Shown here: positions 41,445 to 47,953 of the stretch, in pieces
Layout of the letters: every line of letters begins with the position of its first letter
How positions within the stretch are numbered: position 1 is the stretch's first letter
From: the human T2T-CHM13v2.0 reference genome, Homo sapiens
DNA length: 64,000 nt
Reading direction: 5' to 3' (one strand)
Assembly: GCF_009914755.1 (NCBI RefSeq)
Contig: NC_060947.1
The notes under the pieces: generated by a model
Told to the model about the DNA's origin: nothing
The model's database searches: none
The model's input: the letters and a program-made list of their open reading frames with translations, nothing else
Program-made: the position numbers and the translations under genes

Positions 41445-41794
<350 letters not shown>

Positions 41795-41803
41795 GATCGG
41801 AAG

Positions 41804-42092
41804 CACTTTGACTCCCCGGAAGCACTTTGACTCCACGGAAGTACCTTTTTTTTTTTTTTTTTACATCCGGGAAGTTGCACAGCGCAAAATCAGACCATTT
41901 GGGACAGTCTTAGGAGTGCGTTCCGGGCTCGGACGCCATACCAGGCCACTTTGACTCCCCGGAAACACTTTGACTCCACGGAAGTACCTTTTTTTTTTTT
42001 TTTTTTTTACATCCGGGAAGTTGCACAGCGCAAAATCAGACCATTTGGGACAGTCTTAGGAGTACGTTCCGGGCTCGGACGCCATACCAGGC
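41804..42092. repeat. Near-perfect tandem duplication of a 143/146-bp unit
   Basis: Copies 41804-41946 and 41947-42092 differ by 2 substitutions and T-tract length (T17 vs T20). Confidence 0.95.
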
Positions 42093-42281
42093 CTGGATCC
42101 TTAGGACTTCTCCAGAGCACTTTGAAATAATTGTGGAAGGGCTTTGGCATCTCTAGAACACCGAGAACTGTGATAGACAGTTGAAAAAAGGAGGCGCCGG
42201 AGTGGCGTGAGGGCCCTCCAGCTCTGGGGCCCGTCGGCACGCAGAAAAGTACCACCGGAGCGGCACTTAGGTAGGATCCCC

Positions 42282-42365
42282 CAGCAAACACAGGTGCCCC
42301 GCAGAGCTCAGTAACGTGGTTTGCAGCAAACACAGGTGCCCCGCGGAGCTCAGTAACGTGGTTTG
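42282..42365. repeat. 42-bp tandem duplication
   Basis: CAGCAAACACAGGTGCCCCGC(A/G)GAGCTCAGTAACGTGGTTTG x2, one mismatch. Confidence 0.95.
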
Positions 42366-42600
42366 GAAGGGGAGAGAGGCCCCAAAGGCCTGAAAGGCCT
42401 AAAGGCTACTTTGTGGCCTGCACACCGTGTTTTTCTCAAGGTTCATCCTGCCACAGAAATTCTTTCTCCTCCTTCTCCTCCCATTCCTCAGCCACTGGCC
42501 TGATTAGGGCCGGCTCCAAAGACTGCCTCATTTGGAGCATTTGGAGTTCCTTTCGTCCTTGTGATCCCCAGTGCACTCTGCCAGCCCCGTTTTTAAAGAA

Positions 42601-44559
42601 ATGGCTTCTCTGGAGGAGGGTATCTACAGCCTTAAAATTAATTCCAAACGTAGCTCCTATAATTCCATGAACCCTCAATTTACAGCTGGAAGTGAGGGTC
42701 AAAATGAAACTGAGGAACCAAACAAGTTCCAGAGCAGGAAGGGTAGACCTCAAGATAGTGGCTCTTCATTGTCTCTGAGTGTTCTCCAGGAGATCCTGGG
42801 AGATGACATTCCAAAAGTAAAGGAAGAGGCTGTCATTAGTTCACAATCAGACCTAGGAGAGTGTCCCTACTGTGGAGAAAGACCAGCCAGGAATGCCACT
42901 ATCTTTGCTCCTCAAAAAGAGAAAGAGTCAGCCCCAGAAATGAGCAGCTCCTGTGACAAGAGGGTGACTGTTAATCCTCCTGAGAAATTCAGTGAGGGGC
43001 GACCTAAAACACAAAATACACTCATTTGTGAAAAATGCTCTCAGCCTTCAAATTTTCTGGATGACTATAACCCCCATGTAATAATCCAAAAGCGACTTAG
43101 CAACCAAAGTAGAGTCATTTGTGAAAAAAGCTCTCCACCTTTAAATGTTCCGGATAACTATAACTCCCATTCAGTAATTCAAAAGCACAAAGAAAAGATG
43201 GCAATTGAGCGCCCCTCTTCAGGGAGTGACTGGTCTGATGTAGGTGGAACCACAGTCATATTCTCTGAAGAGAAGCCATTCTCACTGTGTCTTCCTGTAG
43301 TGTCAGAGCCTCCATACTACGCCACTGACTACACCACTTTTCCACCTCATTATAGTCCTTGGCATGACTACACCAGCTCTTGGTTCAGCAGTACCAAGTC
43401 TTCTTGCTATCCCTCCTTGGGCAGCAGCAGTAACACATTGCAGGCTGGGAAGAGCAGCTGTAGCAGCAGCAGCAGAAGCAACAACAACATATTCCAGGGT
43501 GAGAGGAGCAGCCACCAGAGCTTCCTGAGTGATTATTCCACCAGTTTTCCAGTGAGCTCCGAAAACACATCCAGAGATCTGAAGATGACAGAGGAAGGCA
43601 GATCCAAGAATTCTTCCTTATTTTACTACTCCAGAAATGTGGAAGCAGAGGCGAAGGAGGAGAGAGTATATCAAGAGGAGACATTAGGACATCCTTATGG
43701 AGGACGTGCATCTAGCTTTCCGCCAAGGACCATCTGGCAGCCAGAGCAACCGGGTTTCATTGATACCCACTGTCATTTAGACTTGCTATATTCCAGGCTG
43801 CCTTTCAAAGGCACCTTTACCAAATTCAGAAAAATTTATAGCAACACCTTCCCCAAGGAGTTTCAGGGCTGCATTTCTTGCTTCTGCAATCCTCAAAACC
43901 TAAGTGATAACCTGTGGGAGGATCAGTTGAAAGATGATCTGGTTTGGGGGGTCTTTGGCTGTCGCCCTCATTTTGCCCATTATTATAACAACTATCAAGA
44001 AAGAAGTATTTTAAAAGCCTTACGACACCCCAAGGCTGTGGCATTCGGCGAAATGGGCTTGGATTACTCCAGTAAGTGCACCACGCATATCCCAGAGCAG
44101 CAGAAAGTATTTAAGAGACTGCTGCGGCTGGCCGTCTCTCTAAAGAAGCCCATGATGATCCACTGCCGAGAAGCCGATGAAGACCTACTGCACATCTTGA
44201 AAAATTACGTGCCCTCTGACCACAAGATACATCGCCATTGCTTCACTGGGAGTTACTCAGTCATCGAGCCCCTGTTGAACCACTTTCCCAACCTGTATGT
44301 GGGCTTCACGGCAATTCTGACTTACTCTTCTGCTGGGCAAGCCCGAGAAACTGTGAGAAAGATCCCGCTAGAGAGAATTATTGTAGAAACCGATGCTCCC
44401 TTCTTCCTCCCTCGCTGGGTTCCCAAAAGCTATTGCCAGTATGCCCACCCAGGCCTGGCCCTGCATACTGTGCGAGAGATTGCCAGAATCAAAGGTGTGT
44501 CGCTCTCCCACACCTTGACCGTCTTGCGGGAGAACACCCATCGCCTCTACCATCTTTAA
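42601..44559 (+). CDS. TATDN2P1: Intact 652-aa TATDN2-like protein: Ser-rich disordered N-terminus plus C-terminal TatD metallo-nuclease domain (~43753-44556)
   Basis: Single uninterrupted ORF from ATG 42601 (gaaATGG; in-frame TGA upstream at 42562) to TAA; TatD motifs [32 protein letters not shown] present. Confidence 0.85.
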
Positions 44560-44927
44560 ACAGAAAAGGCACAGTCAGGAGTCTTCCCAAGAAAGGAGAC
44601 CGGTAGCCTAACAAAACATACAGACTAGATTTGAACTCTGCGTATGTCCTGGGTCAAGGATGTGTTTGAAGAATTCGTTGGAACGGAGTAAACTAGGACA
44701 GGATATTTTCCTCAAAACCTTTTCGTAAGACTTCTGTTTCTGGCTGGTAGGGTGGGGTACAATGGGATGGCAGGAGGGTTAAGGTAAACTGCCCTTGATG
44801 TTATTAAGGTTTTTCTTCCCAGCAAAAATGCCTTAAGGTAGCCAGTAAAGAAGACAGCTTGATAGAATACAAAGAGTTTCCCAATCTAAATCCCTGTCCT
44901 CTGCAGCCTGCTTTTGATCGCTTGGTG

Positions 44928-44933
44928 AATAAA
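44928..44933 (+). terminator. Polyadenylation signal of the retrocopy
   Basis: AATAAA ~370 nt after the stop codon and 21 nt before a short A run. Confidence 0.6.
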
Positions 44934-45028
44934 GTCACCCTCCTACTTGTCTTTAAAAAAATGTAGAATTTTAAAAGTGAGGTAGGTGATTTGTGTATTA
45001 TATTTGTATATTATAGGAATTCTATTTA

Positions 45029-45510
<482 letters not shown>

Positions 45511-47953
45511 ATTTTTTAAATAAAAAATGTAAGTATACACTCAACAAGGTAAGCAAGATATACACACAATGAGTTTTCCTTTCAAAAAAAATTTTTCTAT
45601 CAAAAAAATTTTTTTTAATTTTAGATGAGAAAACTACTTTTCCAACCTGCTCCTCTCTCCCTGCATTTCTGTGTGGCAAATGCAAGTATTATACTCTGCA
45701 GTGTTTCTAACATGCAGGAGAGAACCTTGTTGCAATTCACCTTTATTTCTTTAGGAAGGGGAGTGAGCAATGTAGTTCTGAGTGTAGTATATCAAGAGTG
45801 GCCTAAATCAAAAAGCACAACCTTCATTTACTTATTCCATGAGTGAGGTAAAGAACAGTTCACTTACTCATGTTACTAGTAAAATCTTGCAATGCAAATG
45901 TGCAAAATTTGGGACACTTAGTAAATAGTTTGCTACTTAAGTGATAGATATTCCATTGAACCTCGAAGAATTATTATTTAGCATTTATTTTTCTGGCATT
46001 TGGTGTGTCTACTCTCCCATCCTGGAGGCATCAGAGAGCTGTGAAAGTAGCCAGTAATCTAGAAATTCAATTTACTCTTAGTGGTCCCTGGGCCATTAGT
46101 CCAGAGTCACAGAGCCTCTCAAGGCCCATTAACAGGCTCCCTGAACCTTGGCAGTCCTTTCAGGGCATGTCAACATTTCGCTTCACTTAAATTTTAGAAA
46201 GGCAGCTATTTCTACCTTTAAAGCTCAAAAGAAACAAACTGCCCACTTTGTCTTGGGAGACAGAGGGATTTGCTTTTTCAGTTGGTTTTTATTCATATCT
46301 AACTTCAAAATTCATACCTGCTTATTAAAAATTTTTGAGACAAGCAAAAAAATAAACGTGATTTTTTAAAAACCCAAACAAAATAAAAGCAACAGAAGGA
46401 AAAATGCACATGGTAAAATTGATTTTTTAAAAATCAATAGAAGAGTCAAATATTTACAAAATCTGGATATACAAAATTTGACTTAGGAAAATTGATTTTG
46501 GTAGAAATGTGATCATCAAAAAAAACTCAGATTGTCAAAAGCCATGATGGACAGCATTCATATAGACAAAAATTAATGAACCAAATGTTTCCAGTAAAAT
46601 TTATTGTAGAAAAAAAATCTATTGAAAATATTTCTTAATAGGAAAATATGGTAACAGTTTACCCGCATGGAAAAATTGTTCAAAGAATTAAAGTAGCTTG
46701 TAGTGGGGAAAAAAGTAAAAAGTAAAAATTAAAAAAAAAAACACACAAAGAGGGAGTAAAATAGCCCATAATGCTACCCACTTAGAGACAATCACTAACA
46801 TTTGGAGTAGCTCTTTGGCAGTTTTCTCTAATATTTCCATATATTGGCCAATTCCAGCATTGTACTTAAGTCAATTTTGCTAATTAATACTATTCACTTC
46901 ATAGTTAGCATAGCTATACATTTTACTTTCTCTGAGTTTATGATTTAAATACATTGTTTTCTGTATTTTTTGTTTAGGTTTAATTCTGTTTGTTTTAAAT
47001 ACTCAACTCAGACGGCATGTGCTTTTTCAAAACTATTGTTTACTGATACAAAAAATTGTGCTTTGAAATTTATTTTTCTTTTTGTTCTCTGATGTCTGTT
47101 TTATTGTGTATTTTTTAATGTCTTAAGCTAAATGCTTAGTTTATTTTTAATTTGGAGAGCAATAACAAAGCAGTCAATACTACAAATGTGTCTGTAATTA
47201 TAACTCTGCTGTATACATAGATTTAATTTGATAAAGTTTACACACTATAAAAATACAAACGTATTACAAAAATATGGAAATAGAGAGTAGCAGGAAAAAG
47301 TATATGGCATTTCTATTACCTAGAACCCCACTGTTGTTGATGTCTTTCCTTGACATAGTTGTGACCATATAGCCTGTTAAATTGCATATTCTTCTAAATA
47401 ATTCATATTTTTTTTCTATCCCTATCTTGGATTTGGGGCTCATTTTATGATTGTTATTCTTTTATCTTTCAATAAATACTCAAAATGTTTATGTTATGTT
47501 TTGAATTTTATTTATATTTCACGACCTATTATATATGTTTCTTTCTACTACTCACCACTAATCATTTTATTTCATGACCTCCCCATGGTTGAACTGTTTA
47601 ATTTGCTTTATCTCTTAATTGACTAGCAATTAAGCAACTTTTTCAGGAAAAGTATGTGGATAGCATATTAGTGATAAATTATATAACTGAGATCTTACTG
47701 CTGTTTTCACTAATGATAACACCTTGGCTGAGTTTAGATTTTCTGAGTCACATTTTCCCCTAAAAGTTATAGACATGGCTTCATTGTCTTCTGGCATTTA
47801 GTATTGCTGAGAATTCCAATGTCAACTTTGCCTTTGAGGGTTAAATTACTTTTTCTATCCTGATGCTTGGTAATTTCCTTGCTTTATCCTTGAAAATTTG
47901 TCAGGGTAGATCTAATTATTGATCTCTTTTTTATTTTCTCTGGTACAGAATAA

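What the first reader, a model, noticed from the sequence alone, without database searches (positions are those of the whole stretch)
42601..44559. Probable functional X-linked TatD-nuclease retrogene hidden as a 'pseudogene', nested antisense in EFHC2
Seen: an intronless, uninterrupted 652-codon ORF with a complete TatD TIM-barrel domain retaining all six canonical metal-site positions: His 43768 and His 43774 (DTHCH), Glu 44050 (GEMG), His 44161 (IHCR), His 44236 (HRHCF) and Asp 44392 (ETDAP). It has a strong Kozak ATG, a CpG/ETS promoter-like leader and AATAAA. Known: TatD proteins are metal-dependent nucleases, and TATDN2 has been described as an R-loop-resolving RNase. Against my recollection of TATDN2, the catalytic domain shows many, mostly conservative, substitutions (DLLYSRL vs DMLYSKL; PMMIH vs PLVIH) while the N-terminal half is far more diverged. 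A neutral copy this diverged should have picked up stops and frameshifts, as the L1PA in this window has. Inference: an old retrogene under purifying selection encoding a fourth TatD paralogue, plausibly germline-expressed and convergently overlapping a cilia/flagella gene. I vaguely recall proteogenomic hints for TATDN2P1 in testis but cannot verify this.
Basis: partly seen in the sequence, partly recalled or inferred. Interest (0 to 1): 0.9.

Follow-up and report, generated by a model that had tools for sequence, protein, structure and literature searches.

The report
Old X-linked TATDN2 gene copy, not dead
The human "pseudogene" TATDN2P1 looks like a real, roughly 100-million-year-old, testis-expressed copy of the nuclease gene TATDN2 that many mammals have kept intact, although its protein product in human testis was already reported in 2018.

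Summary
Window 42601-44559 (+) is an uninterrupted 652-codon ORF with a full TatD domain (Pfam E=3e-59), and all listed metal-site residues are present. Zhu et al. 2018 (PMC5834625) reported two TATDN2P1-specific peptides and testis-specific RNA.

New here:
- The ORF is the human member of a single paralogue clade (100/99 support). The clade lies inside Eutheria and outside marsupials. Intact members occur in primates, rodents, colugo, carnivores, rhino, bats and cetartiodactyls. All share a start at canonical Met127.
- A chr13 segmental duplicate of the X locus, made in the catarrhine stem, acts as a neutral control. It has 7 stops, 3 frameshifts and a catalytic D-to-N change. The X copy has none of these.
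- Constraint is uneven. TatD domain N/S is 14/13 against 26/7 in the dead copy (p=0.05). The disordered N-terminal half evolves about neutrally.

Verdict: probably a protein-coding retrogene. Nuclease activity in humans is unproven. Selection in other species rests on protein models only, because no DNA or synteny was available.

The parts
41798..42093 (.). 146-bp tandem repeat (2 copies), each with a poly-T run and CGGAAG (ETS-core) motifs. It forms the CpG-rich 5' part of the island-like region upstream of the retrocopy.
   Evidence: TRF: period 146, 2.0 copies, 96% matches. (41780-42100 CpG o/e 1.02; motifs at 41816, 41835, 41978). A promoter role is inferred, not shown.
42143..42600 (+). 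Retrocopy leader homologous to the parent's first exon (5'UTR and codons for canonical aa 1-126), now outside the ORF.
   Evidence: 42143-42190 and 42379-42635 align to chr3 locus L016 at 81% and 72%; 42379-42635 aligns to chr3:10242651-10242912 at 72%; an in-frame stop lies 12 codons upstream of the ATG.
42601..44559 (+). 652-codon ORF of TATDN2P1. The start codon corresponds to internal Met127 (MASLEEE) of canonical TATDN2.
   Evidence: The shared 'MAS.E' start sits in the same alignment column in human, marmoset-type monkeys, mole-rat, colugo, dog, bat, camel, hippo and whales.
42601..43758 (+). N-terminal half (aa 1-386): predicted disordered and fast-evolving. It is homologous to the parent's disordered region that is needed for R-loop binding.
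   Evidence: pLDDT about 30 throughout. (50% identity to the parent). (N/S 25/3 on the X lineage against 32/9 in the dead copy). (parent fragment 490-761 alone does not bind R-loops).
43759..44556 (+). TatD TIM-barrel nuclease domain (aa 387-652).
   Evidence: Pfam. (model pLDDT 96.4, pTM 0.93). (the top 15 Foldseek PDB hits are all TatD-family, TM 0.77-0.84). (76% identity to the parent).
43963..43965 (+). Codon CGC = Arg455, at the position of the family-conserved active-site His (parent H564, E. coli TatD H62, S. aureus TatD H63).
   Evidence: alignment to 4pe8/4p5u. (His in 92 of 93 other rows; Arg only in siamang). (Arg in Nasalis, Gln in Plecturocebus, His in Saguinus). (H62A strongly reduces E. 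coli TatD activity). (H63A has little effect in S. aureus TatD).
44050..44052 (+). Glu484 = parent E593, which is essential for TATDN2 R-loop RNase activity.
44386..44394 (+). Glu596-Thr-Asp598 = parent E705 (essential) and D707 (partly required).
   Evidence: Invariant in 24 of 24 paralogues and 12 of 12 canonical sequences.
44170..44202 (+). Published testis peptide [11 protein letters not shown] (aa 524-534).
   Evidence: supplement of PMC5834625; it differs from the chr13, chr3 parent and chr6 sequences.
44377..44415 (+). Published testis peptide [13 protein letters not shown] (aa 593-605).
   Evidence: unique to the X ORF among the four human loci.
44560..44952 (+). 3'UTR-like tail homologous to the parent 3'UTR, with AATAAA at 44928-44933 and a short A-run at its end.
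   Evidence: 44595-44952 aligns to the chr3 3'UTR at 72%..
42039..45594 (.). Segment that was copied as DNA to chr13 (G000:C13:22451456-22454970) in the catarrhine stem. It includes non-retrocopy flanks and the downstream Alu.
   Evidence: 3587-bp alignment, 89.5% identity.. (tree position).

Best explanation
TATDN2P1 is the human orthologue of an old, eutherian-specific, retro-derived paralogue of TATDN2, and selection has kept it as a protein-coding gene. An mRNA of TATDN2 was reverse-transcribed and inserted elsewhere in the genome. In human the site is on the X chromosome, antisense in an EFHC2 intron. This happened after the marsupial split and before Laurasiatheria and Euarchontoglires diverged. 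The first 126 codons were lost from the frame, and translation starts at what was internal Met127. The product has two parts: a disordered, fast-evolving N-terminal half and a TatD TIM-barrel domain. The domain carries the metal-binding residues that are essential in TATDN2, which is a Mg2+-dependent 3'-5' RNA nuclease acting on R-loops. In human it is transcribed and translated in testis. Inferred: it acts as a germline nuclease on RNA or RNA:DNA substrates, alongside the broadly expressed parent. In catarrhines the conserved active-site His became Arg, so activity or specificity may be altered. Shown: ORF, fold, residues, phylogeny, neutral-control comparison, and the published peptides and RNA. 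Inferred: enzyme activity, substrate, cell type, promoter, and X-linkage or synteny outside human.
For: The ORF and domain are confirmed. The domain model has pLDDT 96.4, and the top 15 PDB fold matches are all TatD enzymes. Nine metal-site or catalytic positions, including the E593/E705/D707 equivalents and the TATDN2-specific cysteines, are invariant in 24 of 24 paralogues and 12 of 12 canonical sequences. Rooted careful tree of 35 rows: Eutheria 100/99, paralogue clade 100/99, its Euarchontoglires half 100/98, its Laurasiatheria half 100/100, and marsupials outside. The quick PMSF trees give the same result. The start codon position is shared across orders. The neutral control is the chr13 DNA duplicate, which branches in the catarrhine stem (99/98 and 95/91). 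It carries 7 in-frame stops and 3 frameshifting indels; the X copy carries none. At 112 universally invariant TatD sites the chr13 copy has 15 changes, including D598N, and human X has 7, mostly inherited. TatD N/S is 14/13 on the X lineage against 26/7 on chr13 (OR 0.29, p=0.053). In simulation, P(no stop | neutral) is 0.05-0.15 for 55-86 substitutions. With the frameshift expectation taken from chr13, my arithmetic gives roughly 0.01 for the human lineage alone, and intact ORFs are also listed for siamang, Nasalis (partial), Saguinus and Plecturocebus. Published: 2 X-unique peptides with 3 PSMs, testis-specific TMT signal and RNA-seq, and re-detection in a 31-tissue dataset.
Against: Amino-acid constraint in catarrhines is weak. 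Whole-ORF polarised N/S is 39/16 against 63/16 (p=0.30), and 38 differences could not be polarised and were dropped. Pairwise NG86 omega X versus chr13 is 0.78 (N-terminal half 0.96, TatD 0.60). CDS divergence from chr13 (8.8%) equals flank divergence (9-10%). The protein path length on the human X lineage (0.092) is close to that of the dead copy (0.11). The paralogue evolves about 3 times faster than the parent; cross-order TatD identity is 0.69-0.85 against 0.94-0.97. The otherwise near-invariant active-site His is Arg in human. Peptide evidence is thin, at 2 peptides. Among the 120 best hits listed in each, no paralogue appeared for mouse, rat, strepsirrhines, tarsier, Afrotheria or Xenarthra. 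Three bat models are flagged LOW QUALITY. Other species were seen only as database protein models, so their intronless state, synteny and X-linkage are not shown. RefSeq still calls the locus a pseudogene.
Confidence: 0.75

Rival explanations
1. The gene is coding and conserved in most mammals, but in catarrhines, including human, it is catalytically impaired or repurposed. After the His-to-Arg change at the active site and a burst of substitutions in the anthropoid stem, the protein would act as a pseudo-enzyme, a nucleic-acid binder, or a nuclease with changed specificity, rather than as a TATDN2-like RNase.
For: R455 replaces a His present in 92 of 93 other rows. E. coli H62A is strongly impaired. 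The anthropoid stem branch is long, at 0.24-0.25 changes per site. There are 7 human changes at 112 otherwise invariant TatD sites. The N-terminal half shows no amino-acid constraint.
Against: All acidic and His metal ligands are kept. The equivalent H63A in S. aureus TatD had no significant effect. Arg could still contact the scissile phosphate (inference). The TatD domain still shows a lower N/S than the neutral control.
Confidence: 0.2
2. The human copy is a decaying gene. Selection was lost in hominoids or catarrhines, the ORF is still open by luck, and the testis RNA and peptides reflect the promiscuous transcription and translation typical of testis.
For: Overall substitution pattern is near-neutral. 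P(no stop) is not extreme for the human lineage alone, at 0.05-0.15. Only 2 peptides and 3 PSMs are reported. The locus is a RefSeq pseudogene (hub annotation).
Against: The same-age chr13 copy has 10 disabling lesions against 0. Four other anthropoid species also list intact or near-full ORFs. TatD N/S is lower than in the control, and changes at invariant sites since the duplication are about 3 against 11 (the 3 against 11 split is my reading of shared states). The peptides were re-found in an independent dataset.
Confidence: 0.1
3. The locus works as a non-coding RNA (transcribed pseudogene, sponge or antisense regulator of TATDN2 or EFHC2), and the ORF is incidental.
For: It lies antisense within EFHC2 (hub annotation). 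Testis RNA is detected. The 3'UTR-like part is unusually similar between the X and chr13 copies.
Against: An RNA-only role does not explain a 652-codon frame kept open across at least eight mammalian orders, invariant catalytic residues, or the detected peptides. The low 3'UTR divergence is split evenly between the two lineages (7 against 8), so it is not X-specific constraint.
Confidence: 0.03

Closest known systems
Human TATDN2 (chr3), the Mg2+-dependent 3'-5' RNA nuclease that degrades the RNA strand of R-loops (Jaiswal et al. 2023, PMC10711561; abstract and passages read)
   Same: It is the parent gene. The TatD domain is 76% identical. E593, E705, D707, the HxH and His ligands, and the TATDN2-specific C538 and C656 are all retained. 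A disordered N-terminal region precedes the barrel.
   Different: The X copy is intronless and on another chromosome. It lacks the first 126 residues. Its N-terminal half is only 50% identical. H564 is replaced by Arg. It is reported as testis-specific, where the parent is broadly expressed. It evolves about 3 times faster. No activity has been measured.
Bacterial TatD / YcfH and human TATDN1 and TATDN3 (solved TIM-barrel nucleases: 4P5U, 6L25, 1YIX, 2Y1H, 8EFG)
   Same: The fold matches (TM 0.77-0.84), and so do the metal-ligand set and the sequence family.
   Different: Only 20-27% identity. Those proteins have no long disordered N-terminus. Their GxHP His is present, whereas human X has Arg.
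Retrogenes recruited to the mammalian X with testis expression, and 'pseudogenes' shown to be translated (for example UBE2L5P in the same 2018 study)
   Same: A processed copy of a broadly expressed autosomal gene, expressed in testis, annotated as a pseudogene, with peptide evidence.
   Different: Here the copy is shown to have intact relatives across many eutherian orders.

Membership tests
TatD-family metal-dependent nuclease (Pfam PF01026) | Profile match above the curated cut-off over the whole domain | tested here: met
   200.8 bits against a cut-off of 27, profile positions 1-253 of 253.
TatD-family metal-dependent nuclease (Pfam PF01026) | (beta/alpha)8 TIM-barrel fold like solved TatD enzymes | tested here: met
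   pLDDT 96.4, with eight strands alternating with helices; the top 15 PDB matches are all TatD family, TM 0.77-0.84, rmsd 2.4-3.7 A (one outlier at 6.4 A).
TatD-family metal-dependent nuclease (Pfam PF01026) | Metal ligands: HxH, Glu, His, His, Glu-x-Asp | tested here: met
   H390, H392, E484, H521, H546, E596 and D598 are present.
TatD-family metal-dependent nuclease (Pfam PF01026) | Conserved active-site His of the GxHP motif (E. coli TatD H62, proposed catalytic residue) | tested here: not met
   Human has Arg455. His is present in 92 of 93 other aligned rows. Functional data conflict between E. coli and S. aureus.
TatD-family metal-dependent nuclease (Pfam PF01026) | Divalent-cation-dependent nuclease activity | not testable with these tools
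   Needs recombinant protein.
TATDN2 subfamily (eutherian) | Groups with eutherian TATDN2 to the exclusion of marsupial and reptile TATDN2 | tested here: met
   Eutheria clade, including all paralogues, at 100/99; 100 SH-aLRT on the TatD domain alone.
TATDN2 subfamily (eutherian) | TATDN2-specific active-site cysteines (C538, C656) and a long disordered N-terminal region | tested here: met
   C429 and C547 are present. The N-terminal 386 aa have pLDDT about 30. However, the first 126 canonical residues are missing from the ORF.
Processed retrogene | Collinear with the spliced parent mRNA, no introns, on a different chromosome | tested here: met
   Six parent exons (chr3) are contiguous in window 42379-44952.
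Processed retrogene | Poly(A) tail and target-site duplications | tested here: inconclusive
   Only a 7-base A-run follows the AATAAA. Target-site duplications were not searched for and are expected to have decayed at this age.
Functional protein-coding gene | ORF conserved in orthologues across species | tested here: met
   Intact models in at least 24 species form one clade. These are protein models only; DNA was not seen. Three models are flagged LOW QUALITY.
Functional protein-coding gene | Non-synonymous rate below the neutral rate | tested here: inconclusive
   TatD domain OR 0.29, p=0.053. N-terminal half not below neutral. Whole ORF p=0.30.
Functional protein-coding gene | Transcript and protein detected | not testable with these tools
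   Taken from print: PMC5834625 passages and supplement file 4; PMC8062694 passage.
Functional protein-coding gene | Depletion of loss-of-function alleles in human populations | not testable with these tools

The most novel reading that the evidence does not exclude
Eutherian mammals have a fourth TatD-family nuclease gene. It is an intronless TATDN2 derivative about 100 million years old (X-linked in human) that databases label either 'pseudogene' (human) or simply 'TATDN2' (other species). It would serve the male germline, and in anthropoid primates it went through a burst of change, including replacement of the catalytic His, that gave it a new specificity or a non-catalytic role.
Probability: 0.3. 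Interest if true: 0.7.

Novelty: new member of a known kind. Interest (0 to 1): 0.55.

Why it matters
If accepted, a RefSeq 'pseudogene' would become a human protein-coding gene and a fourth TatD-family member. Its parent resolves R-loops and is needed for genome stability in primordial germ cells of medaka (PMC12709183; abstract and passages read). A testis-specific, hemizygous-in-males paralogue is a plausible candidate for male-fertility genetics. It is also a confounder in TATDN2 knock-down, antibody and read-mapping experiments. Separately, the chr13 duplicate offers a rare built-in neutral control for measuring selection on a human gene without other species' DNA. The core claim (translated in testis, possibly functional) has been in print since 2018, which limits the surprise.

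Tried and rejected
1. Neutral pseudogene: rejected by the chr13 control and by the cross-order clade of intact ORFs.

2. chr13 copy as a retrocopy of the X gene's mRNA: rejected. The alignment runs 340 bp upstream and 640 bp downstream of the retrocopy and includes an Alu, so it is a DNA duplication.

3. Independent retrocopies in different orders: disfavoured by paralogue monophyly (100/99), the mirrored species tree, and the shared start codon. Synteny could not be checked.

4. X-specific constraint on the 3'UTR as the cause of its low divergence: rejected. Changes split 7 against 8 between the lineages.

5. Full-length structure prediction: uninformative for residues 387-456. It was repeated on the domain with a deeper alignment.

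6. The careful PMSF tree search did not finish in two 300-s runs. It was replaced by a careful LG+G4 search, and the quick PMSF tree agrees with it.

8. Literature searches for the wider paralogue returned nothing relevant beyond the 2018 proteogenomics line. The searches were TATDN2P1; TATDN2+retrogene; TATDN2+retrocopy; TATDN2-like; TATDN2P3; and TATDN2+X-linked+paralog. Supplementary tables of other papers are not searched by that tool and could hold mentions.

9. No complex prediction was run, because no binding claim is made.
Full report
**Observation**

Window 42601-44559 (+) is an uninterrupted 652-codon ORF. Residues 387-651 match the whole Pfam TatD_DNase profile (PF01026, E=3.2e-59, positions 1-253 of 253). 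They correspond to H499, H501, E593, H630, H655 and D707 of the chr3 parent.

The start context is GAAATGG, an in-frame stop lies 12 codons upstream, and AATAAA is at 44928. The 620 bp upstream (41780-42400) have GC 0.54 and CpG o/e 0.78, against 0.23 for the window. This stretch includes a 146-bp tandem repeat with CGGAAG cores. Its 3' part (42143-42600) is homologous to the parent's first exon.

The ORF and its flanks are collinear with six separate exons of TATDN2 on chr3, so the copy is a processed, intronless one.

**Already in print**

Four papers in the searched library mention TATDN2P1.
- Zhu et al. 2018 (PMC5834625; passages and supplement file 4 read) identified two peptides, [11 protein letters not shown] and [13 protein letters not shown], with 3 PSMs. 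They showed testis-specific TMT signal and testis-specific RNA-seq, and suggested an independent function.
- A later reanalysis of 31 tissues found two unique peptides in testis again (PMC8062694 and its preprint; passages read).
- I checked that both peptides differ from the three other human TATDN2-like loci.

**Other copies in the same genome**

A six-frame search of the window's own assembly found four loci:
- the X copy;
- the multi-exon parent on chr3;
- a broken copy on chr6 (35-60% identity, many stops);
- a broken copy on chr13 that is closer to the X copy (74-82%) than the parent is.

The chr13 copy aligns to window 42039-45594 over 3587 bp at 89.5%. That is 340 bp upstream and 640 bp downstream of the retrocopy and includes the downstream Alu. 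It is therefore a DNA-level duplicate of the X locus, not a separate retrocopy.

In a careful 16-row protein tree it branches after the New World monkeys (99/98) and before the Old World monkey/ape split (95/91), which is the catarrhine stem. That makes it a same-age neutral control.

**Neutral-control test**

Projected on the X frame, the chr13 copy has 7 stop codons, 3 frameshifting indels (2, 4 and 1 bp) and 3 in-frame indels. The X copy has none.

Differences were polarised with the parent and the chr6 copy as outgroups. Of the differences, 38 could not be polarised and were dropped.

| Region | X lineage | chr13 lineage | Test |
|---|---|---|---|
| Whole ORF | 39 N, 16 S, 0 stops | 58 N, 16 S, 5 stops | p=0.30 |
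| TatD domain | 14 N / 13 S | 26 N / 7 S | OR 0.29, p=0.053 |
| N-terminal half | 25 N / 3 S | 32 N / 9 S | p=0.34 |

Other measures:
- Pairwise NG86 omega is 0.78 overall, 0.96 for the N-terminal half and 0.60 for the TatD domain.
- CDS divergence (8.8%) equals flank divergence (9-10%).
- At 112 TatD positions invariant in 33 reference rows, chr13 has 15 changes, including catalytic D598N and H544Y. Human X has 7, most of them shared with other anthropoids.
- A simulation gives P(no stop | neutral) of 0.15, 0.085 and 0.05 for 55, 70 and 86 substitutions. With the frameshift expectation scaled from chr13 (my arithmetic), the human lineage alone gives roughly 0.01.

In catarrhines, then, the frame is clearly protected, the TatD domain is moderately constrained, and the N-terminal half is not constrained at the amino-acid level.

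**Deep conservation**

A protein search (433 hits, best 120 listed) returned close, full-length relatives from siamang (631 aa), Nasalis (619 aa, partial), Saguinus (646 aa) and Plecturocebus (648 aa).

It also returned a second, shorter 'TATDN2' (about 580-730 aa) in squirrel, two mole-rats, colugo, dog, bear, rhino, several bats, camel, warthog, hippo and whales. One search added panda, mink, deer, sheep and buffalo.

In species with both proteins, the two lie on different contigs. The paralogue contigs are 113-181 Mb, which is compatible with X chromosomes but does not prove it.

Trees:
- A 58-row tree separates a canonical clade of 32 rows (SH-aLRT 100) from these sequences.
- With marsupial and turtle outgroups, identified, a careful LG+G4 tree of 35 rows gives Eutheria 100/99, one paralogue clade 100/99, its Euarchontoglires half 100/98 and its Laurasiatheria half 100/100.
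- The quick PMSF tree agrees. The careful PMSF search did not finish.

The paralogues share a start codon in the same alignment column ('MAS.E...'), which corresponds to internal Met127 of canonical TATDN2.

The copy therefore arose once, after the marsupial split and before the Laurasiatheria/Euarchontoglires divergence. From recalled dates, not from any call, that is roughly 90-160 million years ago.

Nine catalytic or metal-site positions are invariant in 24 of 24 paralogues and 12 of 12 canonical rows.

The paralogue evolves faster than the parent:

| Measure | Paralogue | Canonical |
|---|---|---|
| Path from the eutherian node | about 0.55 (human X) | about 0.16 (macaque) |
| Cross-order TatD identity | 0.69-0.85 | 0.94-0.97 |
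| Cross-order N-terminal identity | 0.36-0.54 | 0.78-0.84 |

Limits of this evidence:
- No paralogue from mouse, rat, strepsirrhines, tarsier, Afrotheria or Xenarthra appeared among the listed hits. That is not proof of absence.
- Three bat models are flagged LOW QUALITY.
- All non-human evidence is from database protein models. I could not see their DNA, introns or synteny.

**Structure and active site**

The full-length model is poor (pLDDT 44.5), with the N-terminal 386 residues at about 30, consistent with disorder.

The domain model (aa 375-652, 94-row alignment) has pLDDT 96.4 and pTM 0.93. Its top 15 PDB matches are all TatD-family enzymes (TM 0.77-0.84).

For the parent, E593A and E705A abolish R-loop RNase activity, D707A reduces it, and the fragment 490-761 alone does not bind R-loops (PMC10711561; abstract and passages read). 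All three acidic residues and the TATDN2-specific C538 and C656 are kept in the X copy.

One conserved residue is not kept. Arg455 (codon CGC, 43963-43965) sits where 92 of 93 other aligned sequences have His.
- By the alignment, this position is E. coli TatD H62.
- H62A strongly reduced E. coli TatD activity, and the authors proposed H62 as the catalytic residue (PMC4176340; passages read).
- The equivalent H63A in S. aureus TatD had no significant effect (PMC7201278; passages read).
- Catarrhines have Arg, Plecturocebus has Gln, and Saguinus keeps His. The chr13 copy has Cys at this site. I infer that the Arg predates the duplication, since CGC to TGC is a single change.

Whether the human protein is an active nuclease is therefore open.

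**Mechanism proposed**

Shown: an old processed copy of TATDN2, with its frame kept open across many orders, a TatD barrel with intact metal ligands, and published human testis RNA and peptides.

Inferred: it is a germline-expressed Mg2+-dependent nuclease acting on RNA or RNA:DNA substrates like its parent, with a rapidly evolving disordered targeting region. Transcription may start in the CpG-rich region, part of which was inherited from the parent's first exon. In catarrhines the catalytic chemistry may be altered.

The parent is itself expressed in spermatogonia and early spermatocytes and is needed for genome stability in medaka primordial germ cells (PMC12709183; abstract and passages read). 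This makes a germline role plausible but does not show it.

**Novelty**

Six literature searches found no description of the cross-mammal paralogue clade, of the chr13 duplicate as a control, or of the His-to-Arg change. The translated-pseudogene claim itself dates from 2018. Supplementary tables of unrelated papers are not indexed by the search and may hold further mentions.

I rate this a new member of a known kind: a fourth mammalian TatD-family gene of the retrogene type. Interest is moderate.

Noticed in passing
G000:C13:22451456-22454970 (locus L012 1957-5471), matching window 42039-45594: The chr13 TATDN2-like pseudogene is a 3.6-kb segmental duplicate of the X locus, including flanks and an Alu. 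It is not an independent retrocopy, and it dates to the catarrhine stem. Its official name was not checked.
   Followed up: yes
window 44560-44952: The 3'UTR-like part differs from the chr13 copy at only 4.9% of sites (19 of 389), against 9.1% for the other non-coding parts (binomial p=0.0026). The changes split evenly between the lineages (7 X, 8 chr13, 4 unpolarised), so this is not X-specific constraint. The cause is unexplained; low mutability, gene conversion and chance are all possible.
   Followed up: partly
window 41798-42093 and 42282-42365: Two tandem repeats lie just upstream of the retrocopy. One has a 146-bp unit (2 copies) with poly-T runs and CGGAAG cores; the other has a 42-bp unit (2 copies). 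Their origin and any promoter role were not determined.
   Followed up: partly
window 43022-43186: Internal duplication in the N-terminal coding half ('[23 protein letters not shown]' / '[23 protein letters not shown]'), seen as off-diagonal blastn matches to the chr13 copy. The parent seems to hold a weaker version of it.
   Followed up: no
G000:C6:159854885-159856878 (-), loci L005/L013/L017: A third, older and heavily broken TATDN2 retrocopy lies on chr6 (about 71% DNA identity to the X ORF). A review (PMC5408686) places hsa-miR-7161 in 'TATDN2P2'. Whether that is this chr6 copy was not checked.
   Followed up: no
TATDN2P1 locus (hg38 chrX:44290573-44290591, not mapped to window coordinates): A CHEX-seq paper (PMC10645931; passages read) reports a single-stranded genomic DNA segment in TATDN2P1 that catalyses porphyrin metalation in vitro.
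   Followed up: no
proteins P0116 (bear, 723 aa), P0103 (Saccopteryx, 979 aa, extra PF18697), P0067, P0095, P0119: Several paralogue gene models carry N-terminal extensions unrelated to canonical TATDN2. These suggest upstream exons or chimeric models in those species. Three bat models (P0051, P0084, P0321) are flagged LOW QUALITY.
   Followed up: no
window 43385-43711 (-): A 108-aa antisense ORF lies inside the Ser/Cys-rich, low-complexity part of the gene. It is most likely a chance ORF.
   Followed up: no
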